Of a stretch of 64,000 nt of DNA, positions 1,198 to 63,370 are shown piece by piece. The stretch lies in assembly GCA_049999805.1 (NCBI GenBank), contig JBNGIO010006232.1, forward strand, positions 1 to 64,000, written 5' to 3'. Position 1 is the stretch's first letter, and every line of letters starts with the position of its first letter. The stretch comes from Folioceros fuciformis (lineage: Eukaryota). The notes under the pieces are model-generated. The model did no database searches and had not been told where the DNA came from. It worked only from the letters and a program-made list of their open reading frames with translations. Made by a program: the position numbers and the translations under genes.

Positions 1198-3228
1198 ATG
1201 ACTGCCACTGCTGCTACGGCGTGTGCCCGGGACAGTCTCCTCGTCCGCATCGGCTGGCATGCTTCCGTTAGCAGTCCTTCGGAAGCTCGGGCCGAACGCG
1301 TGTCAGCAGCACGGAAATGCCCCGGTGGGGCTGCTTGCGCTGGATCCATTGGGAGCTTGACCAGATTGGGGCACCGGACTGAAACTTCGTGGAGAATGGC
1401 AAACAGGGATCGCAAGCAACGGATGAGGAGCGGTGTGGCGAGATCAGATCTTAATCCAGACGGAAACGCGCAGGGAATGGCTCCGGAGAATCCTGTTCTT
1501 CACGATATTCCTCACTTGCGTGAATATCTGCCAGGGCTGCCGACTTACGAGAGTTCGCTGGCTTACAATCCTTTCTTTCATGCTGTGCACGGGTTCTATG
1601 TGACAGACACCGACATGATCTCGGTGGAAGTGGCAGTGGATACCAACAAGCCCTTGCATCAGGCTCACTACCGCAGAGCTGGACCGCGCGAGAGAGTGTT
1701 TTACAAGGCAGAGGACGTGAAGGCAGCGATTGTGACTTGTGGTGGAGTTTGTCCTGGGATAAACACTGTCATCCGGGAATTGGTCAACACTCTTTGCTTG
1801 CAGTATGGTGTGAAAAATGTGAAAGGCATTGTGGCAGGATATCGTGGATTCTACGGTGCAAATTACAAGGACCTGAATCCTAAGGTTGTAGACGATTGGC
1901 ATAAGAGAGGTGGGACGATGCTTAGCACTACCAGAGGGGGATTTGACCTCAATAAGATCGTCGACAGCATTGAGGTATGTCAGATACTTGGGGAGGGACT
2001 GTGGGGCTAGTTTCAGAGATGTAAGTCTTTGCAGTCCTTTCCACGTTGGAAGGCTACAGTAGATTGTTTCGCGTTGTTGTCGATCCCTTCCAGTGCGTCT
2101 TTGCAGGCCCGTGGATTGAATCAAGTGTACATAATTGGTGGTGATGGAACGATGCGAGGTGCGACTGCAATTTTTGATGAGGTGCAGAGGAGAAAGTTGA
2201 AGGTTTCTGTAGTTGGCATCCCGAAGACCGTGGACAACGATGTGGGCATCATAGACAGGTGTTTTGGACNNNNNNNNNNNNNNNNNNNNNNNNNNNNNNN
2301 NNNNNNNNNNNNNNNNNNNNNNNNNNNNNNNNNNNNNNNNNNNNNNNNNNNNNNNNNNNNNNNNNNNNNACTGCCGTGGAGGCTGCACAAGCTGCGATCA
2401 ACGCTGCACACACCGAAGCGGAGAGTACGCCTAATTGTGTGGGACTGGTCAAGCTCATGGGCCGATACTCTGGACATATTGCAGTGCATGCGACGCTCAG
2501 CAACAGGGATGTGGATTGTTGCCTCATTCCAGAAGTTCCTTTTTTCATGGAAGGAAAAGGAGGTCTTTTAGAGTTTCTGGATCATCGAATAGCTGAGAAT
2601 GGGCACATGGTCATTGTTACGGCTGAAGGTGCGGGGCAACATCTGATACCACGAGGTCATGGAGATGCTAGGGATGAATCAGGCAAGTCTGGGTCCTCAG
2701 GGCTTCACAATTCCAACATGCAGTCCAAACCGTTTCTTCTGATATGTATTAATGTTCAGTTTGTCGCCTTGAACAGGGAACCTGTTGTTGCAAGACATCG
2801 GCTCCTGGTTGAGCAAAGAGCTGAAGCAGTACTGGAAGACAGTAAATCCTAATAAGCCGTTTGGTCTCAAGTATATCGATCCTACATATATGGTACGAGC
2901 TGTTCCAAGCAATTCCGCAGACACCCTCTACTGCACATTGTTGGCTCATTCTGCTGTACATGGGGCCATGGCTGGGTACACTGGATTTGTGGCAGGGCCA
3001 GTTAACGGGGGCTATTGTTACATACCTCTTGATAAAGTTGCAGCCACTCAGCACGTGGTTAATGTTAACGATAACAGATGGGCTTGGATCAGATCCGTCA
3101 ATAATCAGCCAGACTTTGCTGTCCCATCTGAGCAGAGCAGGGGTGACGGGAAAACCTCAGAATATTCGCAGGCACATGAGCAAAAGCAACCATTTCATGT
3201 ACTGGGCACTCCGGAAGCTGACGTATAG
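1198..3228 (+). CDS. PFK2: ATP-dependent 6-phosphofructokinase, plant PFK2-like
   Basis: Motifs [67 protein letters not shown]. Exons ~1198-1974, 2107-2682 (interrupted by N gap 2270-2369) and 2777-3228. The N-terminal extension may be a transit peptide; start codon uncertain. Confidence 0.93.
2270..2369. other. Scaffold gap (100 N) inside the PFK coding region
   Basis: Run of N. The flanks read IDRCFG...TAVEAAQ, so little coding sequence appears to be missing. Confidence 0.95.
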
Positions 3229-3352
3229 TGCCTTGTTGGAGGTTCTGTTTGTACCGATTAATTGAGACACAGGACATCTCTCTTTCCGCACAGTGTTCAC
3301 CCCGTATATTATTAGACTCTCCGACGAAGAAGCTGATTTTGGTTCATTTATA

Positions 3353-6300
3353 TTAATCCGACAGCAAGACAGACTCCACAGGCAAATGACCTAGACAAGT
3401 CAAAACAGATCTTCCTAGCACCTCACAGCTACCCGCTTCAAACTGATCTGCTTTAGCTCCTGCGACATCGTTCAGGAGGAACTTCACACGTCCTCGATGT
3501 CTCAGAATATCTGCATTTTGAGGTTGAATACTGTAAGCTCTATCTAAATCAAGGAAAGCTCCTTCGAGATCGCCTGTGAGGTATTTGGCTACACCTCTCT
3601 CTAGAAGTCCATATGCACTAGCTGTTTTTTCCGGCAGCGAATGGTTGAGGTCTGCCAGGGCCCCTTCATAATCTCCCAAGAGCCCTCTAATACTAGCTCG
3701 TATCCTGCAGCGCAAGGAACGGGGAAATAAGTGTATTATACAATGAGGTTCCCTTCTGGACATCATGTCAGATACAGTGCAACAACTCACAGCAGCGTGT
3801 AAGGGTTATCTGGCTTCAGCTCATTCGCTATATTCAGGTCCTCTAGTGCACCACGATGATCACCTAGACACCTTTTCACATTTCCTCTGAATCTGGTAAA
3901 ACCAAATATGTCAAACACAAACTCAAACAATCATCAACAACCCTTCAGAGAAAAAAAATGCGTACTTGAGGGTGTAGCTGTTCCGTGGATCCATGAAATT
4001 GCTCCTGGTTAAATCTCTAAGTGCCCCTTCGCTGTCACCTACGAGCCTTTTGACATTGCCTCTCAGCCTAGAAAGCCAAACTTGTGTCTTAGAACCATGC
4101 ACTTCAGAAGCAGGACCTAGCTCTACCCTCAAATATACGAGCAGGCACAGGAAACTGTACAGTACCTTAGGACATCGGTGTCATCTGGGTCTAATTCGCA
4201 ACTATGATCGAGATCTTCAAGCGCTCCTGTGTACTTTCCTAATAGGACCTTAGCTGTCGCTCGCAAGCTGCACATACAAAAAAACAGACAAACATCTAGC
4301 ATTCTGATCTAATACCTCAGATTCTATCAATTCATCAGAAACATAGTAGCTTACTTGAGAGTGAAGTTGTCGTTGGGGTATAGCTTATCAGCCTCATCAA
4401 GGTCATCCAAAGCTCCTTGAACATCGCCTGTGTTCAATTTCACGGCTCCCCTAATGCTGTTACCGCACAAACTTTCAAGCATTCAGCAAGAAGACTCCGA
4501 TATTGTTCTGGCAAGAGTAGGCGCTGATTAAACCTGAGCGTGAAACTTCTGTTGGGATCTTGCGCTCCATGTACTGGTTTGTCCAATACAGCACTGCAGA
4601 CATGGAAGAGAGTTTATTACGGTCCATGATCAGGAATAAGTGGGATGCAGGCGACTCATCCGAAGGAGATGGTTGTCACATACTAACTTGGACATGGACT
4701 TGCTGGAAGATAGCCGCTCAAGGGCCTTGTCCAGGGCTCTGTCAAGATCTTCCATTGCTCCTTGGTAGTCTTCCAAATGGAGCTTTGTGTTGCCTCTCAC
4801 TCTACACCACAGGCAACCCATGACTTTCAGTTGGCAACAGGAACAGAAACTCAGAAGTATGTTACTGTGTAAGGGCTTCTCGGATTCTTCATACGTGAGG
4901 ATGAAGTGGTCATCGGGCTCAATTTGGGCAGCTCTATCTAGATCCATCAACGCACCACGATAGTCACCGAGATTGAGCTTCACAGCTCCCATGACGCTGC
5001 ACGATAAACTATAACACATTCAGCCTTGATTCTGCAGCCACTGTCCTCTTTAGTCGTTAATATGGCTGGATGTGCATCAAATTTCGATATGCAAAAACTC
5101 ATACCTGAGAGTCAAGCTCCTGTTAGGCTCCAACTCGTTTGCCTTTTCCAGATCGTGCAAAGCCCCTTCGTTGTCATCCACACATCGCTTGATGTTGCCC
5201 CGAATTCTGAGACACGCCGCCTTTAATTAATGCGTGTCAAAAAACAAAAACTTCCGAATCACACCAGAAGGAGTTATCAGAGGGTACTGAAGGGTAAAGC
5301 TGTCATTGGGTGCGAGCTCGTCTGCTTTGTCCACGTCTGCCAGGGCAGCCTCATAGTCTTCAAAATGCACCAAGATAGCTCCCCTCATCCTGGGACACAT
5401 GCATAGCCAAGCCTTCAGAGTTCAAGACGCATTTCTGCTGGCTACTTCATCCAAGGTCAGATATCTACAATAACCCATCTATTGTCTGACCTTGTGCTGG
5501 TCTGTGCAGACGTTATCTGAGAGTGAAATGCACAATCCAAATGGGTGGAAAGCCTTACTGCAACGTGAGCACGTGGTCCGGCTTTAACTTGTACGATCTA
5601 TTCAGCTCAGCAAGAGCACCCTTCAAGTCCCCTAAGCTTGTCCTTAGATTCCCTGACTGGCGCAAAGTGGCTGCCAAAACCATATCAGCCTGCTGCTCAG
5701 GCTCCAAAATCGGTAGCCTTCCCTCCTCTGTGCATATGGAGAAAGCCATCTGCTGTACATCTTCCATGACACCTCCCAATACGGAAGACTCTAAACCTAA
5801 CTGTTTAACAAGAATTTTCCTCAGATCACCATGACCATAGGAAAGCAGAAAGGAGTTAAGCAGCCTTATCTTAGGCCCACGAGATCTTTCAATTGTCATA
5901 TCCGAACTCAAATGACCTAGATGAACCTGTAGGACAGAGGTGCCGATGTCTGCACGATACCGTGCCAAGAATCGGGCGACCATGGAGTGGACCCAGAAAA
6001 AATTCTGCAACAGCAAAAGGAAACACATCACTGCCATGAATATGAACAAGTCATGAACTTCACCATGTCATAAACTTTTGAAACTCCCAAGTATTCACCA
6101 CAGTGCGTAGGAATGCTTTCACACGCCATAACAAACGGTGAAGGGCAACTCTAACCTTATCACCGTTATGACACACCACACCTAACTGCACAAGATGCCC
6201 CATGAGCTGTGGAAACTGTGAAGCCAACTTGCCACCTGTGACCTCGAGTGCCAGCTCCACCACAGGTGCAGGAATCAGACATTCGCTCTCAAACAGGCTC

Positions 6301-9256
6301 ATTGCCTTGATTGCTTCCTGTTGTTCTGTTGGTAGGCGGCTAAGACACAGGTCGATTACCCCAATCAGTACTGAGTGAGGATCGGGACCAGGCAAACGTT
6401 TTGGTTCTATAACCCAGGGCTCCACATTCTGTTCTGGAGCAGGTGCCACCTTGATGCCATGATCAGAAATGCGAAAGGAATCTATTCGCCACGAACCAGT
6501 CTTTGTGGGAACTCCAAGGTTGTTGAGGAAAGGATCACTGAAGTTGCTGCGCATAGAGAGGAAGGACCCCTCCGTGACGAATCTCACATCATCTTTCAAA
6601 TTTGATGCAGCTGAGTATGAATTAACATCAAAGCATTGCAAGGATGGATCACTGAAGTTGCTCTTGCGCATTGAAAGGAAAGACCCATCGGCAACGCCCC
6701 TGACCTCATCTTTCAGGGTCATGGAAACTGAGTAGAAAGACGTATCGGCATCTGTTGACGTCGTTGTGGCTCCACTTTCTGACACCTTCTTCGTCAGGCC
6801 TTCGAGCAGGATTTGAAGGTCGGCAGACATATTGGCCCATGCAGTTGCATCTTTGCCTCGTAACATGCCACCAATGATGCTCACAGCAAGAGGGCAACCA
6901 CCACAGGTCTCAAGTATTTTGGTGGCTGACTCCTGAACAGAGCCAAACGCATCATCATTTTTCACTGCAAAGCTCAAGTTACGAAGCGTGTAGCTGACAA
7001 CCTTCACGGACATGGTGTGACATACCTTCCGGTCTAGATCAATAGTTGTCCATGAACATGACTCAAGTATCCGATGATCAACCTGTTTACCATAGTAATC
7101 ATCTGATCCAATCTGGATCAGGGTGCAGGAGGAAACTCCAGCACTCCCCACACACTGCGTCCGTATATTGTCATCAGTCAGCATACTTCCAGTCAGCCCG
7201 AGGCTACTTGTCACAAGTATCTTGCCTTTGTGCCCGGGGAACAAGAACTTCTCAACAATTTTTGGACTCCAGACCTCGTCCATAATCAAAAGCGACCGCT
7301 TTCCTGCTTTACACAAGGACGAATATTTTAAACATGACGGTCACCAAGGCATGATAACAACTACAGCATAGTCAGCAAAATGTGCTCACCTGAGAGTCTG
7401 GAAGCAAGTAACTGAGTTGTGTCTGCTTTCGACACACCTGGAGTCTCCGACACCTTTTCACCATCATAGGCCATTAGCATAATCAGCAGCTTCTGTTGCT
7501 CTATTATCTTCGTGTCTAATTCAGCCTCATCGCATTGTGCTCCAAATCTCTCACCAAAGTGTAAATAATACACACCACCAGGATAATCAAGACCTGAGAG
7601 CACCCCACAATTTCATAAGCAGGTGTACACTAGTTGACATGCAGCTCTCATATCTCGAGGTGTACGGAGCAAGATGGCATTGCGCTAAAAACGTCTGAAA
7701 CAACCACCTACACCAACTGCTCACCATTTTCAAGCTCAAGCGCAATGTCAAGGGCAAGGAGCGACTTGCCCATACCAAACATGCCATGAAGCAAGACAAC
7801 CTTATGCGGGCCAGATCTCAGAGTTTGCAACATCAGATCCGCAAGCCTCTTCACCCTTACATACGTAGGTGGCGTGTTTTTCAACCCCAGACCAGTGCAA
7901 ATTTCCTACAAGGGGAGAAGACCTCGATCAGAAGCTGGAATGCGCATCATTTTAGAGGACCCAAATTCGCCTTCCACTTACCGTTAATTGGCTTTTGCGT
8001 GAGAAGGCTCCACAAGTGACAGCTTGATCCCTCAATCTTGCCAGCTCTCTGTCCCAGTACTGCAATTTTGCAAGGAAATGACTGCCCAGTTTCTGTACGT
8101 CCTGAGCAGCATCCTGTGTGTAACTGATAGACGAGACCTAGGTGGCAATGAGACTGTGTCAGCTCTTCTCCCTACTTGCTCTTGATGTCCCGAGATATGT
8201 AGATCAGAGTTTACCATTGCCATGTGCCTAGAATTTGAATTCCTGAGAAATTAACTTTACAGTAACGTGCTACGCAGCAATGAGCTCGAGAAGCTTTCTA
8301 CTGCAAGATACCTGAGAACCACCTCTTGGCCGAAGACAGCATGCCAGCCTCCTCAGTAGTCCACCAGCTGTGCGCTCTGATTTGCTGATGCTCTTCCCTG
8401 GTGATTTCTTGCCTCCGACATCCTGATGAAGCAATCCTGCTGTGATCTCACCATCACTATTCGATCGTCCAAATCGCGCGATCTTCCCCTTCAGTACGTC
8501 AGGAGACGAAGATTCTGAGCCCTTTCTCATGGAACCTGCAGCTTTAGACCAACCAAACCAGGAACTGGTCCTTCTGTGACCTCCATTGGATGGAACAGTA
8601 GCCTTTGAGGATAACAGAGCTGTGTTGATCAGAAGTATTTCGTTGCTTTCCTCGTCCTCCAAAGCTGAGAAAAAGTCTTCGGAATCATCAAGGTGGCGGT
8701 TCTTTCGCTGAAAGAGCAACGATGATTTCTGTCCCACAGCCACCTACAAGCAAGAAACAGGCATTCAGACTGGAACCAGAGGATCATTTTTTCACTAAAG
8801 CTGAGGCTTTCATCAACTTCAGGTGATTTCGCCACGGCACAATCCCATCCACTGCATGCATGGCAAGGTTAGTCACATCTCGACATCAGGGATGTGTACC
8901 TCTTGTCGACCAGCGAGTCCAAGAGATGTTCCAGCCTGATGTATACCCTTCCGCAGTTTGTCAAGGGCGTTCTCCCCAGCACGAGACATAGGACGGCCAG
9001 ACCCACTTGCCTCGATCTCCTTGTCTAGAGCAGACAGCCTGCCAATAAAAGCCGTCACAAACTCCAGACTGTCGTTCTCAATAGATGGCGCATCGACTGG
9101 GCTCCTTTTCGGATAAACATCCTGCGATTGCAGAGAGAGCTTTTCCAGTATCACTCCAATTGCTCGCACATTGCTGATGATATCCGTGAGATGTTGATCA
9201 CCCATCGTATATCTGGCCGCAAGATTTAGTGCAGATTCCAATCTCTCTCTCAGCAA
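3353..9256 (-). CDS. NB-ARC (STAND NTPase)-TPR protein, NLR-like, with an unassigned helical N-terminal domain
   Basis: Spliced frame gives Walker A GMFGMGKS (7762-7785), Walker B/kinase-2 LLIMDEVW, RNBS-B KILVTS, GLPL-type GGCPLAVSIIGG and an MHD-position WVHSMV. These are followed by about 12 TPRs of consensus RGxVKxxLGDxxGALxDLxxAxxLxPxxxxxL. All junctions traced are GT-AG and in frame. The 5' end upstream of ~9256 is unresolved (in-frame ATG at 9205). Confidence 0.88.
6530..6718 (-). repeat. Internal coding duplication (~114-117 nt period) within the NB-ARC exon
   Basis: LKDEVRGVADGSFLSMRKSNFSDPSL vs LKDDVRFVTEGSFLSMRSNFSDPFL; ggatcactgaagttgct occurs at 6532 and 6646. Confidence 0.85.
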
Positions 9257-11052
9257 ACTGTCAGACAGATCCCGGCAGTTGGCTCACGGATGCCTACAAA
9301 CTTGGGTCTGGCTCGAAAGCATGTTTCTAAATTGTGTGTGTCTCAATCTGAACATAGAACTCAACCTCTTGTCCTCCAGTTGATGCTCGACAGATCAGAA
9401 CATCCACTACCACCAGTAATGTGAGCAGACCTGCCGTGATATCACAAACATACCCGTTCTCTTCAAAGGACTCATCAGGAAGGACGAGGAATATGAGTCA
9501 GGCCCAAGGGTGGAAGAAGACTGGATCCCAATTTCCAGAGAAATCAGCAAGCCCGTAGTTCACATCGCCCATGGGCACAGCCAGTGGTGAACGTTACGGG
9601 AAAAGTCTTGCATTGCAGAACGAGACTGCTCCAATCATCCAACACCCTTGCATCAAAATCAAGAAACCGCAAGAGAATTATCATTGCAGGGTCGGATGTG
9701 GGGACATTGAGGCAGATGGTGGAGCAACCAGGCGGTGATGTGGGGACTTAAGCGAGGAAGAGAGCTCCAGGACCAAGCATCTGTCTGGCCAGCTCTCGTG
9801 AGCTGGGCCTGAGGAGGACGGCAGAACAACACCAAACAGGAATAGCGAGGCTGGATATCCAGTCGGACGGATGCATAGTATATCAAGGCAGCCAACGAGA
9901 CAGCCACTGTGGGACAGAGATCCCGTGAAGCAACCATGACTGCCAGCAGAGAGAGGGTCTCCCAGAGCGGAGGCACAGTGACGAGATGTTGCAACCTTCA
10001 AAAAGTCAGCTGACATCCACGAAGTGCCAGGACACACCGCGCTCCAACAGCTCTGGCATGGGACCCCTGGAGACTAAAAGAAGATGGGCGTGGAGAGCGT
10101 CGTTCATGCAAACGGACGTGCTCACACGATCCGCCGGCTGCCATGGCCAAACTGGTAGACCATGGTCCACGAAAGGAGGGGGCCCACCGGCTCTCCTTCA
10201 CCTCATCCCAAATATGTATGATTTCCACACCTCTGCTGCAGGAACCTCTGCAACCAACTTCTCGCTCGATTCACGGACTCCTCGTACTCCCCACACCCTA
10301 CCTATTCTCATTGGAACACGTTGTCAAACCTACACGATCAAACCGACATACATTGTGTAGTGCATCTATCTACATCACCAGTGAAATTACACTACAGAGC
10401 AGGATTACACGCAAGGCCTCACACCTCCATGCAACTTTCTCCACGCAGCGAAGTAAACTGCTAGCACCAAATACAGTAAAGACTGTACATTCCTATTTAG
10501 GCTCCCCATCCAGGTCCTTACTGCAGTGTAGAGCTTTTAACCACGACTTTCTTAAGATACATCTGGACTGAGCCATCGAGCAACTCGGACATACATCATC
10601 TCTTTTCGTGGCTGTCGGAGACCTGGAGACGCCGAGAGGATGCAGGCGAACATGAAAAGGGTTGGTTGCGGAGGAATTAAATCTGTCGAAATATTTTAAT
10701 TTTTGGTTAAGGTTTGATTATGGTAGTCGGCAAGTGACGAAGAGTGGAGGGCTTCAAGCTTAGAGACCTCAGGGCGTGATGGGCAACATAGACTTCTGAT
10801 GAGAGCCCGTGTTCGTAAGGAGGCAAACCGGTGTGGAAAAGGCGGGAAGCTCAGGCCTTGAGAGTTTGGATTAACTAGGTTGTTCATAACCCGTGACATG
10901 AATCACAAGAGTGTTCACACACGAAGGAAGCAAACGTCGTGCCTTTGGTTGAAGGCAAACCAGCTGCTACTGGTGGGTGGGTTTGTCCGACAGACTTCTC
11001 CGAGGTCCTGAAGCAGGCGTCCGGGTCCTGCCTGGGTGGCTCGAGCTTCACC

Positions 11053-13948
11053 ATGGGGAAGAAGCAGCACAGCAAGGATCGCATGTTCATCACCCGCTCG
11101 GAGTGGGCTACAGAGTGGGGCGGTGCGAAGAATCGGGACTTGCGATTGCCTTTCAAGCAACTGCCCTTCTACTGCTGCGCGTACGTTGGTGTGAGGGAAT
11201 TTTCGGTTTGGTCTCTTTTCGTGTTTTTGGGTGCTGGTTGCTGACCCGATAGTGGATGGCGCCTGCAGGCTGACTTTCACCCCGTTTGAAGACCCCGTGG
11301 GAACAGCAGAGGGACATGTTTTTGAGATCATGTGAGTGGGTTGATGCAAGATGAGAATGTGAAAGTTTGAGTAGAGACGTGATTTGACTTACTGTGATGA
11401 GAGGACATGACATGAGATGAGGACTTGGGCTTTTGTTCTGTGCAGGAACATCGTGCCGTACATACAAAAGTACGGCAAAAATCCAGTTTCTGGGACACCG
11501 TTGGCCGTGAAGGATCTCATTAAGCTGCGATTCCACAGGAACTCAGATGGTATGATTTACGATGGTGACTGATGGGTTTGGAAAGTTGGTGAGATGCTTT
11601 GATGTTTGATAGCTGGCTCCGTAGTGACGTTCCCTTCGTGAACGTGCCCGTCTTCAGGAGAGTATCAGTGTCCAGTGCTCAACAAGGTTTTCACGGAGTT
11701 CACCCATATCGTGGCTGTGAAGACAACTGGCAACGTATTTTGTTATGAGGTTTTTCTCAGTTCATGAGATTTCTTGTTTTTCTGCATGTGTTGTATCACA
11801 TTCAACGCAGTGTTGTGACCTGACCTGGGATGGGACCTGGGATGCAGGCGGTTCGTGAGCTCAACATTAAGACCAAAAATTGGAGGGAACTGCTTTCCGA
11901 TGAGCCGTTTTGTAGGGATGACATCATCACCATTCAGGTCAGCCTTCAATCGTGAAACCATGGCAGGCTGAAAATCTGTCAGGCGAGGCAAACTTTGCTT
12001 TGCAGGGCCACCCAGTAGCTGCAATATGGATATAATTTGAACTGGATGTTTCCCAGATCCTGTGAGGCTGAAGGGCCAGCCTGGCGTTTGAACCGAATCT
12101 TGACATTCATCTGTTGCGACAGGATCCTAATAACCTGAATGCCAAGCTTCTAACAGAATTTGACCATGTGAAGCGTGAGCTTAAACTTGATGATGAAGGT
12201 ATGCTTTTAGCAGACTGTTTGATGTGTGGAGCTCCGTTCAAGATGGGTCCGTGGGGCCGTGGGGCTCATCATTCTCATGTTAATCTGAGCGTATTGTGAT
12301 TACAGAGTTGAGAAAGCTGCAGGAAGATCCTACGTACAACATCAATATGTCGGACGATATCAAGCGCATGATGCATGACCTTGGAACAGACAAAGGCAAA
12401 GAAGCCGCCTTGAATGGTGGAGGTGGTGGAAAGGCCCAACGGGAAAGAGCTGCCGCAGTAGCAGCTTTGGATGAAACAAGAGAGCGCGCAGCTAAAATGG
12501 AAGCAGCTACTAAATCCAAGCCTGATAAGCCACCAGCTATGAGTGTGGTTGATGCCGCGTCAGCCTCAGTTCACGGAAGGAGTGCAGCGGCTGCTAAAGC
12601 TGGGACACCTGAAAATACAGCTGCTCGTGTAGCTCTCCATGCACAGGGAGAGCTAGTTCCTGTGAACACTAAGCTGGTAGGCTACTGCTCGTTGACCTTG
12701 CAGCCATCTAGGAGATCCTGTCGTTCACAACTTGTTTTGCCACTGACACCCTGTGATTCCTCGACACAGATCAAAAGCAAGTACACCACCGGGGCTGCAT
12801 CTCGATCCTTTACTTCCACCTCCTATGACCCTGTCACAACTAATGATTTTGAGTATGTCAAAGCTGAGAAGAATCCCACGAAGAAAGGGTATGTCCGATT
12901 GCATTCCACACATGGAGACCTTAACATTGAACTCCATTGTGACATAACACCCCGAGCATGTGAGAACTTTATCACCCTGTGCGAGCGGGGCTATTATGAC
13001 GGCATTGCTTTCCACCGGAATATCAGGTTTGCTTGTGTCCGCAGCCGTCAGCTTCTGTTGTTGTGTCCGTGAGGTGAAGCGCCACCATATCTAACATGAA
13101 GTTGTTGTCTTGTGTAGGAATTTTATGATTCAAGGGGGTGATCCAACTGGGACAGGTAAAGGTGGGGAGTCCATTTGGGGAAAGCCTTTCAAAGATGAGC
13201 TGAACTCGAAGCTCATCCATTCAGGACGGGGTGTTGTTAGTATGGCCAACAGTGGACCACACACAAATGGGTCTCAGTTCTTTATTTTGTACAAGTCAGC
13301 TCAGCATCTCAACTACAAACACACAATATTTGGAAAAGTTGTCGGAGGGCTAGAGACACTTGCAGCCATGGAAAAAGTTCCTATTGATGATGACGACAGG
13401 CCATTGGTAATCTCGTAACTTGGCAGACTCCTGTTTCTCGCCGTTGGCTATGTTAATCTGGCTAGATGTGAGACTGAGCGCAATCGCCCTTGCATTTTTT
13501 GCCTGACATTCGCGGAACTGTTATCATTGTGGGATTGTGGCAGGAGGAGATCAAGATCCTGAGTGTTTCTATTTTCGTCAACCCATATGCAGAGCTAGAC
13601 GAAGAGGAGGAACGGGAGAAGAGCAAGCCAGTCAAAACTCCTCAGGAACTTGCTGAGGATGTGAGCACCATCCATCCTTTTGCTTTGACGTCCCTAGTTT
13701 GTGGTTTGCTGAGCATCGGTGTTGGCTAACAGAGTCTCTCTATCCCACAGGAAAAGGTGGGCTCATGGTTCAGCAATCCAGGGTCAGGAGTCTCTCTTGT
13801 AGCGAATGGTAATGGTGTCGGCAAATACCTAAAAGTGAGGCAGGTGGCGAAGGATGTTGGAGCCTCGAGCTTAGAAGACAACATCAACAACAAGAAGCGG
13901 AAAGCCGAAGTTGCAGGAGTAGAATTCAAGGATTTCTCTGGATGGTAA
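11053..13948 (+). CDS. CYP65: U-box/cyclophilin peptidyl-prolyl isomerase (CYP65 / PPIL2 type)
   Basis: Starts [18 protein letters not shown]...LPFYCC. Cyclophilin core [10 protein letters not shown]...ENFITLC...[27 protein letters not shown]...[16 protein letters not shown]. Ends FKDFSGW-stop at 13948. Multi-exon, GT-AG introns. Confidence 0.93.
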
Positions 13949-14474: not shown

Positions 14475-15785
14475 GGCATACAAGATAGTTTGATGTGGCT
14501 TGTGTGGATAAAGGAGGCTACACTTTTTTTGTGCTAAGAGGCAACCACTCATTCCATGCAAGGTCTAGAATTATCACATCTTTCCCTGTTGAAAGAAAAG
14601 GTGAAGTGGCTGAATGCTTATGTACTCATGGGACTCACCATGGAGAAGATGCACCTTATTGCACATACCACAATACCATTGTTATGCAAGACTTTTACTT
14701 TTATAGATTGTGTCAAATACATGAGAGACGAGCTGCTAACAAGAAAGACGAAGGTTTTGAACTACTGTGGTGTAATTGACAGTAGGATATTAAATTTCTT
14801 TGTGGTAACTTCACCACATATATAAATGCCTCCTTTTTCATAGACCTTCAAGTAGATGAAAAAACACTTGTGGATGAAATGTTTGAAAAGTGGGAGTGGA
14901 AGCAACTATCAGAACACATGGATGCAACACNNNNNNNNNNNNNNNNNNNNNNNNNNNNNNNNNNNNNNNNNNNNNNNNNNNNNNNNNNNNNNNNNNNNNN
15001 NNNNNNNNNNNNNNNNNNNNNNNNNNNNNNAGCTCATGTTGGCAATGGCAACCTCGACCTTCTAAGATGACTACTGTAAACTCCAAGAGAAATTGTGCTC
15101 GTAGAAGTCATGGAATCCGAAATTCATGTAAGGGTTTGGCAACCAAACAAAAAAAAAGGGCATAAGAAGATTGAGGAGTACCATAAATTGCAAGAGATAT
15201 TGTGGTGGTAGATTTCAAGAAAATCTAAAATTCATGCAAGGGTCGGAAGGATTTTCAAGGTATGAGCAATCTAGTACAAGGAGGCGACAACTCGTATGAA
15301 GATACTATCTAGAGAGATTCTTTGAAGCATATACAAATGTGGTTGGAGAAGGCGAAGAAGCTAAACATCATCCATGTCACACTGGCCAAGCATTGAAATT
15401 GCGAAATATGAAAGCAAGTGAGAAGAAGTACCTGTAATATAACATAGCTGACCATATCAACAATTTTCAACCATCATTTCAGAATGTGGTAAGTGGACAT
15501 TAGGTTTGTGTTTTAATGCACCAAATGTTCTATACATGGAGTTTGTGGCCAGATTTGAAGTGATAATCAGTATTTGGAGGTCTTGATATTAAGTAATGTT
15601 CCCTCCATAAGCGAACATGATGCTTAAGTGAAAGGACTTTTAGGGTTTTATGGTTTAGGGTTTGCCTAGTAGTTTCAAAGAGCACATCCTAAATGCAAAG
15701 CTTTGAGGCTAATGGAAAATGTGCAGAGGCACTTGTTATATGACATTTAAGGATGACAAGGGAAGAAAGAGTAATGACTATGTAA

Positions 15786-36293: not shown

Positions 36294-36393
36294 NNNNNNN
36301 NNNNNNNNNNNNNNNNNNNNNNNNNNNNNNNNNNNNNNNNNNNNNNNNNNNNNNNNNNNNNNNNNNNNNNNNNNNNNNNNNNNNNNNNNNNNN
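36294..36393. other. Scaffold gap (100 N)
   Basis: Run of N. Confidence 0.95.
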
Positions 36394-39745: not shown

Positions 39746-41236
39746 CTACTTCTCCTTACCCCCACCGAACATGCCTCCAAAATCTTTGCTCCCAATATTC
39801 TTCATCAAACTCTGCAAGCCTCCGACACCACCTATTTGCTGTAGCATTTGGGGTGGAAGCACCCGGCTCATATGTTGTGCATTCATATTCCTGGCCATGG
39901 AGCTCATATCTCCCTTCTTGGGTATTTTGAGACCTTTCATCTTACTCCAGATCTTGGCCAGCCTCATAAACTCTTCCAGCAGATCATGCACCTCCTTCAG
40001 AGTGCGTCCAGAACCTCGTGCCACTCTCATCATCCGTGAGGGCTCTGTCATTATTTTCGGATTCGTGCTATCGAGCTCTGCGTTTGTCATGGAGTCCATC
40101 ATGGTCATGTACTTCTGAATCTTACTCTGACTCTCTTTCTCCCGGCCCTTGGGCATGAGCTCAGCACTGAAACCTGGAATCATGGCCATCACCGAGCTCA
40201 GCGGGCCCATGTTCAGAATGTTCTGAAACTGCTCGTACATAATCCGTAAGGTGAAAGTTCCCTCCGTCAGCTTCTGCAACAGTTCTGGCTGCTGCTCCAT
40301 GGGCACCACTTCATGAATCTTGTCCATGAACCCAGACCAGTCTCCCATGCCGAGCAATCTCTGCACGAAAGGCTTCGGCTCAAACTGCTCGAACTCATCC
40401 ATATGCTCTCCAGTACCAAGGAAGATGATGGGGCTTTTCGTTGCTGCAACAGCACTGAGAGCACCACCTCCCTTCGCGTGCCCGTCCATCTTCGTCACGA
40501 TCACAGCCCCCACTGCAACACTCTGCTTGAAAGCTTGTGCTTGATCGAATGCAGCCTGTCCTATGCTACTGTCCATGGTGAAAATGACCAAGTCCGGTGA
40601 CACGGCCTCAGAAACTTGCCTCATTTCCTCAAACAAGGCAGCCTCCTGCTTGTGCCGTCCACTGGTATCCACAATAATCAGATCACAATTCTCCTTCTTA
40701 AACCTCTCCACGCCTTCCTGCGAAATTTTGACTGGATCAGTCTCCGTGTAGCTGCCAAAAAACGGGATCTTCGCCTTGGTTGCGTTCTGCTTCAGCTGAT
40801 CGAATGCTCCAGCCCTGAATGTATCTGCACACACCAACGCCGGTTTCCACCCTTTCTTCTGATAGTAATATGCATACTTGGTACAGGTGGTAGTCTTCCC
40901 CGCCCCCTGAAGTCCTACAAACATGATTATGTTCAGCTTCCCTTTCTTCGGCGTGAAAGCAGGCTTTCCTGGGTCCAGCATCGAGCACAGCTCGTTGAAC
41001 ACAGCCTGCTGGATGATCCGCCTCTTGTTGTGCCCTGCAGCCAGATCCTCCAAGTTCACTATTTTCTTGATGTTGTTCTGCATGGTCCTCACCATCTGGA
41101 ACTGCACATCAGCCTGCATCAACGCCCTGGTGATCTCATTCAAGCAATCTGCTAGCACCTTCTCGTCTATCACAGTAGCGTTGCTCATATGCTGCAGGGC
41201 CCGGGCAATCCGCCCACCAAGCTCTGCGAGCACCAT
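39746..41236 (-). CDS. SRP54: Signal recognition particle 54 kDa subunit (cytosolic), single exon
   Basis: Uninterrupted 496-aa [51 protein letters not shown] and a Met-rich M domain. Confidence 0.97.
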
Positions 41237-41561
41237 CTTGCCACCCCTCTCCGGCTTCTCCCGGCCTCAATCAAAATCCTGGCCCGGTTAGTTGCTTTGC
41301 ACTCACGACCCTCTTCGGTTTTCGGTCAAGCAATCTAAAGTGTTCTTCCAGGAAGCGTCCTGCGCACGGAGGGCACTCCGTCAGCCGCCTGAGAGACCCG
41401 ATTTTGCTAGACGTCTTTACGCTTTATAAGTGCGTCTTGACAGGACCCAGATGCTGTGTCTATTATTTGACTTCTAGGAGCAGTCCACACCCAGTATGTA
41501 GGGTTGAGCTGGGAATATAGCCTAGACGTTTGCGACAGGTAGATTGGAAAGGGTATTCGAG

Positions 41562-60614: not shown

Positions 60615-63370
<2,756 letters not shown>

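What the first reader, a model, noticed from the sequence alone, without database searches (positions are those of the whole stretch)
3353..9256. Non-canonical NLR-like receptor: unknown N-terminal domain + NB-ARC + TPR array, with no LRR or recognisable TIR
Seen: a complete ordered set of NB-ARC motifs followed by about 12 TPRs in one traceable reading frame. Established: land-plant NLRs mostly use LRR sensors. TPR-ended STAND proteins are typical of bacteria, fungi and some algae, and the plant TNP class carries a TIR domain, which I do not see here. Inference: an under-described immune or cell-death receptor class in a non-seed plant.
Basis: partly seen in the sequence, partly recalled or inferred. 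Interest (0 to 1): 0.78.

Follow-up and report, generated by a model that had tools for sequence, protein, structure and literature searches.

The report
Spliced plant NB-ARC–TPR switch gene without TIR
This is a real, transcribed 18-exon gene of a land plant or close algal relative that encodes an NLR-like switch protein with TPR repeats in place of LRRs and an unrecognised helical head; it is a rare variant of a known receptor design, and its immune role is untested.

Summary
On the minus strand an 18-exon gene (CDS 9205..3353, 1,339 aa) encodes four parts. First, a roughly 100-aa helical N-terminus and a roughly 145-aa Ser/Gly-rich linker, with no Pfam match. Second, an NB-ARC ATPase with Walker A, Walker B, GLPL and a VHS (MHD-like) motif in order. 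Third, a helical linker. Fourth, 11 full TPRs and a partial twelfth, mostly one 102-nt phase-2 exon each. No TIR or LRR was found. Spliced contigs of public run X1 support all 17 GT..AG introns, and one contig joins the 5' end, the NB-ARC and the first two TPRs. The "separate transcripts" refutation therefore fails.

The neighbouring PFK gene matches bryophytes and lycophytes best (60% identity or less), so the host is a streptophyte poorly sampled in the protein database.

Relatives are scarce. Of 1.84 billion representatives, 11 scored. Only two unnamed fragments and one chlorophyte protein ([Myrmecia] bisecta) look like family members.

The NB-ARC sits on a long branch apart from two plant NLRs and four prokaryote-type NB-ARCs. 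TNP sequences could not be obtained for comparison.

TIR-less NB-TPR proteins are already on record in green and brown algae. Verdict: a new variant of a known kind, with function inferred only.

The parts
3353..9205 (-). Complete CDS, 18 exons, 1,339 aa (ATG at 9205, stop codon 3355-3353)
   Evidence: spliced contigs of run X1, GT..AG introns, one open frame
9206..9900 (-). 5' UTR of at least 695 nt, unspliced in the RNA contig (the contig runs on beyond 9900). An in-frame stop at 9284-9286 excludes an N-terminal extension within this exon
   Evidence: table 8 (record 3, piece 8898-9900)
8900..9205 (-). E1 coding part, aa 1-102: N-terminal all-helical region with no family match
   Evidence: Pfam: none at E<=10. 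AF2 single sequence: helices 2-28, 44-67, 75-94, pLDDT 58. ESM Atlas: no usable hit. Foldseek PDB: no match at E<=0.001
8312..8743 (-). E2, aa 103-246: Ser/Gly/Lys/Arg-rich low-complexity linker
   Evidence: Composition S 16%, G 12%; no Pfam family at E<=10
7982..8137 (-). E3, aa 247-298: region just before the NB-ARC, no family match
   Evidence: no family at E<=0.01.
7725..7905 (-). E4, aa 299-359: start of NB-ARC with Walker A GMFGMGKS (aa 339-346)
   Evidence: (weak AAA_16 and NB-ARC hits)
7390..7593 (-). E5, aa 359-427: RNBS-A-like YPGGVYYLHFG, which resembles the FPDGI..G of prokaryote-type NB-ARCs
   Evidence: alignment
7026..7303 (-). E6, aa 427-519: Walker B LLIMDEVW; RNBS-B KILVTSS with Ser where the sensor-I Arg should be; lineage-specific insertion of about 18 aa
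   Evidence: 62% identity to fragment P0002
6156..6932 (-). E7, aa 520-778: GLPL-type GGCPLAV; insertion of about 150 aa that holds an internal tandem duplication (aa 586-617 and 626-655); winged-helix part
   Evidence: Pfam NB-ARC E 1.4e-8. Duplication scores 92 against shuffles 22 +/- 4.4, maximum 43 of 500
5559..6004 (-). E8, aa 779-927: MHD-position VHS (783-785), helical linker, first TPR (896-926)
3791..5389 (-). E9-E17: TPR units 2-9. Exons: 5288-5389, 5105-5206, 4895-4996, 4688-4801, 4534-4593, 4355-4456, 4166-4267, 3966-4067, 3791-3892. Seven are exactly 102 nt. All are phase 2. E12+E13 together form one unit with an insert
3353..3704 (-). E18: TPR units 10, 11 and a partial twelfth, a 33-aa tail and the stop codon
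   Evidence: Pfam TPR_9, TPR_11, TPR_2

Best explanation
This is an intact, transcribed nuclear gene of a streptophyte. It encodes a 1,339-aa STAND (signal-transducing ATPase) switch of the NB-ARC-TPR type.

Shown here: the exon structure, the splicing, the domain order (helical head, disordered linker, NB-ARC, helical linker, 11-12 TPRs), the absence of TIR and LRR, and membership of a small, deeply branching NB-ARC lineage shared with a chlorophyte alga.

Inferred from what is established for Apaf-1, plant NLRs and bacterial NB-ARC/TPR sensors: the TPR solenoid folds back on the NB-ARC and keeps it in an ADP-bound off state. Binding of a still unknown ligand to the TPRs releases it. Nucleotide exchange at the Walker A/B site then drives oligomerisation. 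This clusters the N-terminal helical domains, which pass on the signal, most probably a defence or cell-death output.

The one-TPR-per-symmetric-exon layout would let repeats be gained or lost without breaking the frame.
For: Gene and transcript:
- 17 GT..AG introns are supported by spliced contigs of run X1. Record 3 (3,842 nt) carries the 5' UTR, the N-terminus, the whole NB-ARC and TPR units 1-2. Record 2 (684 nt) carries E10-E16. Short contigs bridge the remaining joints.

Domains:
- Pfam NB-ARC 34.7 bits, above its cut-off, and TPR_1 30.6 bits, above its cut-off.
- Ordered motifs.
- 11 full TPR units and 1 partial unit.
- No TIR or LRR.

Lineage:
- The spliced protein matches the [Myrmecia] bisecta protein P0004 collinearly across NBD, linker and TPR: 115 bits and 34% identity over the NBD. 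Prokaryote-type NB-ARC scores 81 bits and plant CNL/RNL 44-48 bits.
- In an 8-row ML tree the window protein and P0004 group at 100/100 on a branch of length 2.04.

Host context:
- The flanking genes are ordinary plant genes: PFK, cyclophilin-type PPIase, SRP54, GT90, citrate synthase.
Against: - No functional evidence of any kind exists. Ligand, output and nucleotide cycle are all inferred.
- The sensor-I arginine of RNBS-B is replaced: VTSS here and VTSG in the unnamed relative P0002, against VTSR in the alga. The MHD Asp is Ser. The ATPase cycle may therefore be altered or lost.
- There are no signs of the rapid diversification typical of immune receptors. The TPR exons share only 32-60% nucleotide identity, the introns are unrelated, and there is no paralogue in the 64-kb window.
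- The N-terminal fold is only a low-confidence model (pLDDT 58), with no match to any executioner domain.
- The tree has 8 rows and no TNP, fungal, brown-algal or Klebsormidium sequence, so 'distinct lineage' is provisional.
- Run X1 is RNA only by the tool's guess. The intron-less contigs are what argue for RNA.
Confidence: 0.55

Rival explanations
1. It is a TNP (TIR-NB-ARC-TPR, XTNX) descendant that lost its TIR domain and kept the NB-ARC and TPR parts.
For: TNPs are nearly ubiquitous in land plants, have C-terminal TPRs, and bryophytes have their own clade III (PMC9806590, passages). The domain order from NB-ARC onward is the same. The TNP NB-ARC is said there to resemble actinobacterial and fungal NB-TPR proteins, and prokaryote-type NB-ARCs are among this protein's nearest non-family hits.
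Against: No TIR remnant was found in E1-E3 or in upstream ORFs, including scans at E<=10. The roughly 300 aa before the P-loop are helical or low-complexity, not alpha/beta. The RNBS-B 'TTR' motif described for TNPs is VTSS here. None of the 11 hits in 1.84 billion representatives is a plant TIR-NB-ARC-TPR protein, although plant CNL/RNL proteins did score. That query lacked the P-loop exons.
Confidence: 0.15
2. It is a conserved regulatory or scaffolding STAND protein with no immune role. It would be comparable to Apaf-1-like or bacterial AfsR/MalT-type NB-ARC/TPR regulators, and may have an impaired ATPase.
For: The gene is single-copy in the window. The TPR exons are old and diverged. A homologue exists in a chlorophyte, so the lineage is ancient. 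The sensor-I Arg is lost and the MHD Asp is lost. Weak NCBIfam similarity of the algal relative to AfsR, HaaT and FxSxx_TPR-type NB-ARC-TPR proteins, E 3.5e-4 to 1.9e-3 and far below their cut-offs.
Against: The family is very patchy. Three family-like hits in 1.84 billion representatives is unlike a housekeeping gene. The large lineage-specific insertions and 44-62% identity to the nearest relative fragments indicate fast evolution.
Confidence: 0.22
3. It is an artefact: a pseudogene, a chimeric gene model, or a recent bacterial transfer or contaminant.
For: The NB-ARC scores better against prokaryote-type NB-ARCs than against plant NLRs. The assembly has four runs of 100 N in the window.
Against: One open frame of 1,339 codons runs across 18 exons with 17 GT..AG introns, all removed in RNA-type contigs. 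None of the N runs lies in the gene. Plant genes flank it on both sides.
Confidence: 0.03

Closest known systems
Plant TNP / XTNX proteins (TIR-NB-ARC-TPR; e.g. AT5G56220, AT4G23440, Mapoly0134s0035, ZmTNP-IIa; Johanndrees et al., PMC9806590)
   Same: NB-ARC followed by C-terminal TPRs instead of LRRs; present in non-seed plants; NB-ARC closer to prokaryote-like forms than the classical NLR domain is.
   Different: No TIR domain. The N-terminus is helical and low-complexity. RNBS-B is VTSS, not TTR. NB-ARC relatedness was not testable here.
[Myrmecia] bisecta hypothetical protein KAK9820258.1 (P0004; chlorophyte, Trebouxiophyceae)
   Same: Closest named relative: GMFGMGK[ST] P-loop, [FY]PGGVY motif, collinear NB-ARC, linker and TPR; 34% identity over the NBD; sister at 100/100 in the tree.
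   Different: It is a 532-aa model with a PIF1-helicase fragment at its N-terminus, probably a mis-model. It keeps the sensor-I Arg. It lacks the roughly 18-aa and roughly 150-aa insertions. Its N-terminal domain is unknown.
Klebsormidium NB-TPR 'clade I' (Andolfo et al. 2019, PMC7145615) and chlorophyte NB-ARC+TPR_12 proteins of Coccomyxa and Volvox (Sarris et al. 2016, PMC4759884)
   Same: TIR-less NB-ARC-TPR architecture in the green lineage. The Klebsormidium NB domains are said to lack the typical R-protein signatures (passages).
   Different: No such protein was among the 11 hits.
Ectocarpus NB-ARC-TPR family (Zambounis et al. 2012, PMC3341825)
   Same: NB-ARC-TPR with each TPR encoded by its own frame-symmetric exon (passages).
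   Different: Brown-algal exons are 42 aa and show active shuffling, clustering and pseudogenes. Here the exons are 34 aa (102 nt, phase 2), only 32-60% identical, and single-copy in the window. Probably convergent.
Prokaryote-type Apaf-1-like NB-ARC proteins (metagenomic P0012 and P0011 with APAF-1-like WHD and helical domain; TIR-NB-ARC P0009; EAD1-NB-ARC P0007)
   Same: Best non-family matches: 30% identity and 81 bits over the NBD for P0008/P0012; shared FPDG/YPGG RNBS-A-like motif.
   Different: Different N-terminal domains, no introns, and separated by a long branch.

Membership tests
Canonical plant NLR (CNL/TNL/RNL) | Central NB-ARC domain | tested here: met
   PF00931 34.7 bits against cut-off 23.5; ordered motifs
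Canonical plant NLR (CNL/TNL/RNL) | C-terminal leucine-rich repeats | tested here: not met
   No LRR family on any exon ORF scanned. The C-terminus is 11-12 TPRs
Canonical plant NLR (CNL/TNL/RNL) | N-terminal TIR, CC or RPW8 domain | tested here: inconclusive
   TIR and RPW8 absent by Pfam. A CC-like helical bundle can be neither shown nor excluded: 3 helices at pLDDT 58, no fold match
Canonical plant NLR (CNL/TNL/RNL) | NB-ARC groups with plant NLR NB-ARCs | tested here: not met
   44-48 bits to CNL/RNL against 81 bits to prokaryote-type and 115 bits to the algal relative. Separate long branch in the 8-row tree
TNP / XTNX | TIR domain N-terminal of the NB-ARC | tested here: not met
   No TIR or TIR_2 hit: E<=1, E<=0.01 for E3, E<=10 for E1, E2 and 7 upstream ORFs
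TNP / XTNX | RNBS-B with TTR motif (as described in PMC9806590) | tested here: not met
   KILVTSS, Ser at the Arg position
TNP / XTNX | C-terminal TPRs | tested here: met
TNP / XTNX | NB-ARC inside the TNP clade | not testable with these tools
   No TNP sequence could be obtained. 0 of 11 hits is a plant TIR-NB-ARC-TPR protein, but the query lacked the P-loop exons
NB-ARC-TPR STAND NTPases (bacteria, fungi, algae) | NB-ARC NTPase with Walker A and Walker B followed by a TPR array in one polypeptide | tested here: met
NB-ARC-TPR STAND NTPases (bacteria, fungi, algae) | Intact sensor-I Arg and MHD-type His-Asp | tested here: not met
   Arg replaced by Ser460. His784 is kept, but the Asp is Ser785
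Ectocarpus-type exon-shuffled NB-ARC-TPR | One TPR per frame-symmetric exon | tested here: met
   7 exons of exactly 102 nt, all phase 2. The unit is 34 aa, against 42 aa in Ectocarpus
Ectocarpus-type exon-shuffled NB-ARC-TPR | Signs of ongoing exon shuffling or gene clustering | tested here: not met
   Exons share 32-60% nucleotide identity and the introns show no mutual similarity. No second copy in the window

The most novel reading that the evidence does not exclude
The gene represents a third NLR-like receptor lineage of the green plants, ancient enough to be shared by chlorophytes and streptophytes. It would be neither an LRR-NLR nor a TNP. It would have a new helical N-terminal signalling domain and a cassette-like array of one TPR per symmetric exon. 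[quoted passage not shown]
Probability: 0.35. Interest if true: 0.65.

Novelty: new variant of a known kind. Interest (0 to 1): 0.45.

Why it matters
Plant intracellular immunity is described almost entirely in terms of LRR-NLRs, with TNPs as the single TPR-bearing exception. An expressed TIR-less NB-ARC-TPR gene in a streptophyte, with a chlorophyte homologue, would show that a second TPR-type STAND lineage survived into (or near) land plants. It would also offer an N-terminal domain of unknown output to test. The one-repeat-per-exon layout parallels brown-algal candidate receptors and bears on how repeat sensors diversify. If the gene turns out to be a TIR-less TNP or a member of the Klebsormidium NB-TPR group, it is only one more catalogue entry.

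Tried and rejected
- Whole-genome search: no genome is held for this window, so no paralogue census was possible.
- Word-indexed protein searches for longer relatives. The 426-aa ORF alone gave 0 of 4,796 candidates. Profile A1 gave 1 of 7,999 candidates, a TPR-only protein (P0134) that is not a family member.
- Metagenome contig scans with E7 and E6: 87 and 215 pattern matches, 0 confirmed.
- RNA evidence: no listed holder is on record as RNA. X1 is 'RNA?' by the tool's guess. Its depths were not used to rank anything.
- N-terminal domain: the ESM Atlas gave no usable hit. AF2 without an alignment gave pLDDT 58. Foldseek against the PDB gave 0 matches at E<=0.001; the best were designed 3-helix bundles at E 0.83 or worse. 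This is uninformative.
- PADLOC: no defence-system family for the NB-ARC exons or P0004 at E<=0.01, apart from two weak P-loop hits.
- NCBIfam: only far-sub-threshold NB-ARC-TPR regulator hits.
- PDB sequence profile: weak matches to NRG1-like, NRC, ZAR1 and Apaf-1, E 8e-5 or worse. These do not discriminate.
- Earlier scan notes: nothing for this genome or sequence. The word search returned bacterial TIR-NB-ARC-TPR cases only, which do not bear on this gene.
The spliced transcript uses VHS in exon 8 instead.
- Supplementary tables of PMC9806590, PMC7145615, PMC4759884 and PMC11218826 were closed. They may list related proteins.

Full report
**What is there**

Six-frame translation of 3,000-9,900 shows a chain of minus-strand open segments. 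These carry a P-loop, a Walker B, a GLPL-type motif and a long run of 34-residue repeats. Pfam confirms NB-ARC on the largest segment (PF00931, 34.7 bits against a cut-off of 23.5, E 1.4e-8). It also finds TPR families on the downstream segments, for example TPR_1 at 30.6 bits against 27.8.

**Gene model and transcription**

One public run (coded X1; 'RNA?' by the tool's guess) holds 69% of the sampled words of 3100-9700. I laid its contigs on 2900-9900. They show 15 listed joints whose skipped parts end in CT..AC, which is GT..AG on the minus strand. Three further joints were not listed.

- Shifting within the stated ambiguity gives exact GT..AG borders for all 15.
- A 16th intron (8744-8899) follows from two pieces that are adjacent in record 3.
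- The last two (7906-7981, 8138-8311) are the only GT..AG pair that satisfies both conditions: the 337 nt of exon that record 3 must still hold, and an open frame.

The result is an 18-exon gene. Its 17 introns measure 73-174 nt, median 93. The ORF is 1,339 codons, from the ATG at 9205 to the stop codon at 3355-3353, and an in-frame stop lies 26 codons upstream of the ATG.

Record 3 (3,842 nt) runs from beyond 9900 through the N-terminus and the entire NB-ARC into exon 9, so it includes TPR units 1 and 2. Record 2 (684 nt) covers exons 10-16. Short contigs bridge the joints 5206/5288, 3892/3966 and 3703/3790.

**Anatomy of the protein**

- aa 1-102: no family at Pfam E<=10. AF2 without an alignment gives three helices (2-28, 44-67, 75-94), but at pLDDT 58.
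- aa 103-246: low complexity, 16% Ser and 12% Gly.
- aa 247-298: a short region before the NB-ARC, with no family match.
- NB-ARC motifs:
  - Walker A: GMFGMGKS (339).
  - RNBS-A-like: YPGGVYYLHFG (362), which resembles the FPDGI..G of prokaryote-type NB-ARCs.
  - Walker B: LLIMDEVW (431).
  - RNBS-B: KILVTSS (454), where Ser460 replaces the sensor-I arginine.
  - GLPL-type: GGCPLAV (530).
  - MHD position: VHS (783-785).
- Lineage-specific insertions: about 18 aa after RNBS-B, and about 150 aa between ARC1 and the winged helix. The larger one holds an internal tandem duplication, with alignment score 92 against 22 +/- 4.4 for 500 shuffles (maximum 43). Both insertions are shared with the unnamed relatives P0001 and P0002 and are absent from the algal homologue.
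- TPR array: after a helical linker come 11 full TPR units and a partial twelfth. Nine of these units were used to build the repeat HMM. Two match it independently, at iE 1.8e-8 and 2.1e-9.
- TPR exon layout: units 2-9 are encoded one per exon. Seven exons are exactly 102 nt and all are in phase 2. One unit is split over a 114-nt and a 60-nt exon.
- Absent domains: no TIR or LRR was found on the exon ORFs scanned or on seven upstream minus-strand ORFs.

**Host and context**

The convergent neighbour upstream is an ATP-dependent phosphofructokinase. Its best matches are Sphagnum (60%), Physcomitrium (58%), Adiantum (58%), Diphasiastrum (57%) and Selaginella (56%). Closterium scores about 50% and nothing scores above 60% (297 of 830 candidates scored).

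Other ORFs in the window carry cyclophilin-type PPIase, SRP54, GT90, galectin-domain and citrate synthase families. The locus is thus an ordinary streptophyte nuclear region from a lineage that is poorly represented among annotated proteins.

A bryophyte is plausible. From memory, and not from any call, the short introns suggest a hornwort or a lycophyte. A streptophyte alga is not excluded.

**Relatives**

An exhaustive phmmer search of the 426-aa ORF against 1.84 billion representatives gave 11 hits at E<=1e-3.

- Two are fragments from one unnamed 10-kb contig: P0001, 44% identical to the spliced protein, and P0002, 62%.
- One is a hypothetical protein of the chlorophyte [Myrmecia] bisecta, P0004. 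It is collinear over NBD, linker and TPR: 115 bits and 34% identity over the NBD. Its N-terminus is a PIF1 fragment and probably a mis-model.
- The remaining eight are prokaryote-type NB-ARCs, with TIR_2, EAD1 or Apaf-1-like WHD and helical domains, and angiosperm CNL/RNL proteins.

By BLAST the order is alga (115 bits), then prokaryote-type (81), then plant NLR (44-48). In an ML tree of 8 rows, the window protein and P0004 group at 100/100 on a branch of 2.04 substitutions per site, apart from both other groups.

This tree contains no TNP, fungal, brown-algal or Klebsormidium sequence, because none could be obtained. Word-indexed searches and two metagenome scans added nothing.

**Comparison with the literature (passages only; supplements closed)**

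- Johanndrees et al. (PMC9806590) define TNPs as TIR-NB-ARC-TPR proteins. [quoted passage not shown]
- The preprint of Chia et al. (10.1101/2022.10.19.512840) places TNPs and other atypical proteins sister to the CC clade. The published version (PMC11218826) notes untapped atypical C-terminal repeats in non-flowering plants.
- Andolfo et al. 2019 (PMC7145615) report a Klebsormidium NB-TPR clade whose NB domains lack R-protein signatures.
- Sarris et al. 2016 (PMC4759884) list NB-ARC with TPR_12 in Coccomyxa and Volvox.
- Zambounis et al. 2012 (PMC3341825) describe Ectocarpus NB-ARC-TPR genes with one 42-aa TPR exon per repeat and active exon shuffling.

The architecture as such is therefore on record in green and brown algae. 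What is not on record in these texts is this particular family. Searches for 'NB-ARC-TPR', for NB-TPR variants, for hornwort or Anthoceros with NB-ARC, and for charophyte with NB-ARC and TPR found no description of it.

**How it most likely works**

Shown: a single polypeptide with a nucleotide-binding switch between an N-terminal helical module and a TPR solenoid.

Inferred, by analogy with Apaf-1, plant resistosomes and bacterial NB-ARC/TPR sensors: TPR-mediated autoinhibition, ligand binding to the TPRs, nucleotide exchange, oligomerisation, and signalling by clustered N-termini.

Three points argue for caution:
- The sensor-I Arg and the MHD Asp are replaced.
- The TPR exons are old (32-60% nucleotide identity, unrelated introns).
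- No paralogue lies in the window.

A non-immune regulatory role, or a TIR-less TNP derivative, therefore remain live rivals.

**Verdict**

This is a new variant of a known kind (NB-ARC-TPR STAND proteins). It has an unrecognised N-terminal domain, unusual NB-ARC insertions and an exon-per-repeat sensor. Its family placement relative to TNPs, and its function, remain open.

Noticed in passing
window 1396-3580 (+) against 3353-3704 (-): The ATP-dependent phosphofructokinase gene converges on the NB-ARC-TPR gene. Its RNA-type contig (record 1, 2,161 nt) runs to 3580, about 230 nt past the other gene's stop codon. A plus-strand GT..AG joint (3578 to 3709) lies inside the last TPR exon. The two 3' ends therefore appear to overlap as an antisense pair.
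   Followed up: no
window 3703/3790, 3892/3966 and 5206/5288: The RNA-type contigs break at exactly these three TPR exon junctions, and the pieces have different word depths (18, 82, 38-64). This could reflect isoforms or related transcripts that share TPR exons. Contig data cannot decide.
   Followed up: no
window 39749-41266 (-): An uninterrupted 506-codon ORF encodes a complete SRP54 (SRP54_N, GTPase and signal-peptide-binding domains). It appears to be intron-less, in a window where the NB-ARC-TPR gene has 17 introns.
   Followed up: partly
window 6156-6932 (-), aa 586-617 and 626-655: A tandem duplication of about 30 aa sits inside a roughly 150-aa insertion between the ARC1 and winged-helix parts of the NB-ARC. 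The insertion is conserved in the unnamed relative P0001 and absent from the algal homologue. Its role is unknown.
   Followed up: partly
window 2270-2369, 14931-15030, 36294-36393, 63193-63292: Four runs of exactly 100 N (scaffold gaps). None lies within the gene studied; the first interrupts the PFK gene.
   Followed up: no
window 10897-13069 (+): The next gene upstream, transcribed divergently, carries a cyclophilin-type PPIase domain. From memory, its first exon resembles PPIL2/CYP65-type U-box cyclophilins; this was not tested. About 1.7-1.85 kb separate it from the NB-ARC-TPR start codon, and at least 695 nt of that is covered by the NB-ARC-TPR RNA contig as 5' UTR.
   Followed up: partly
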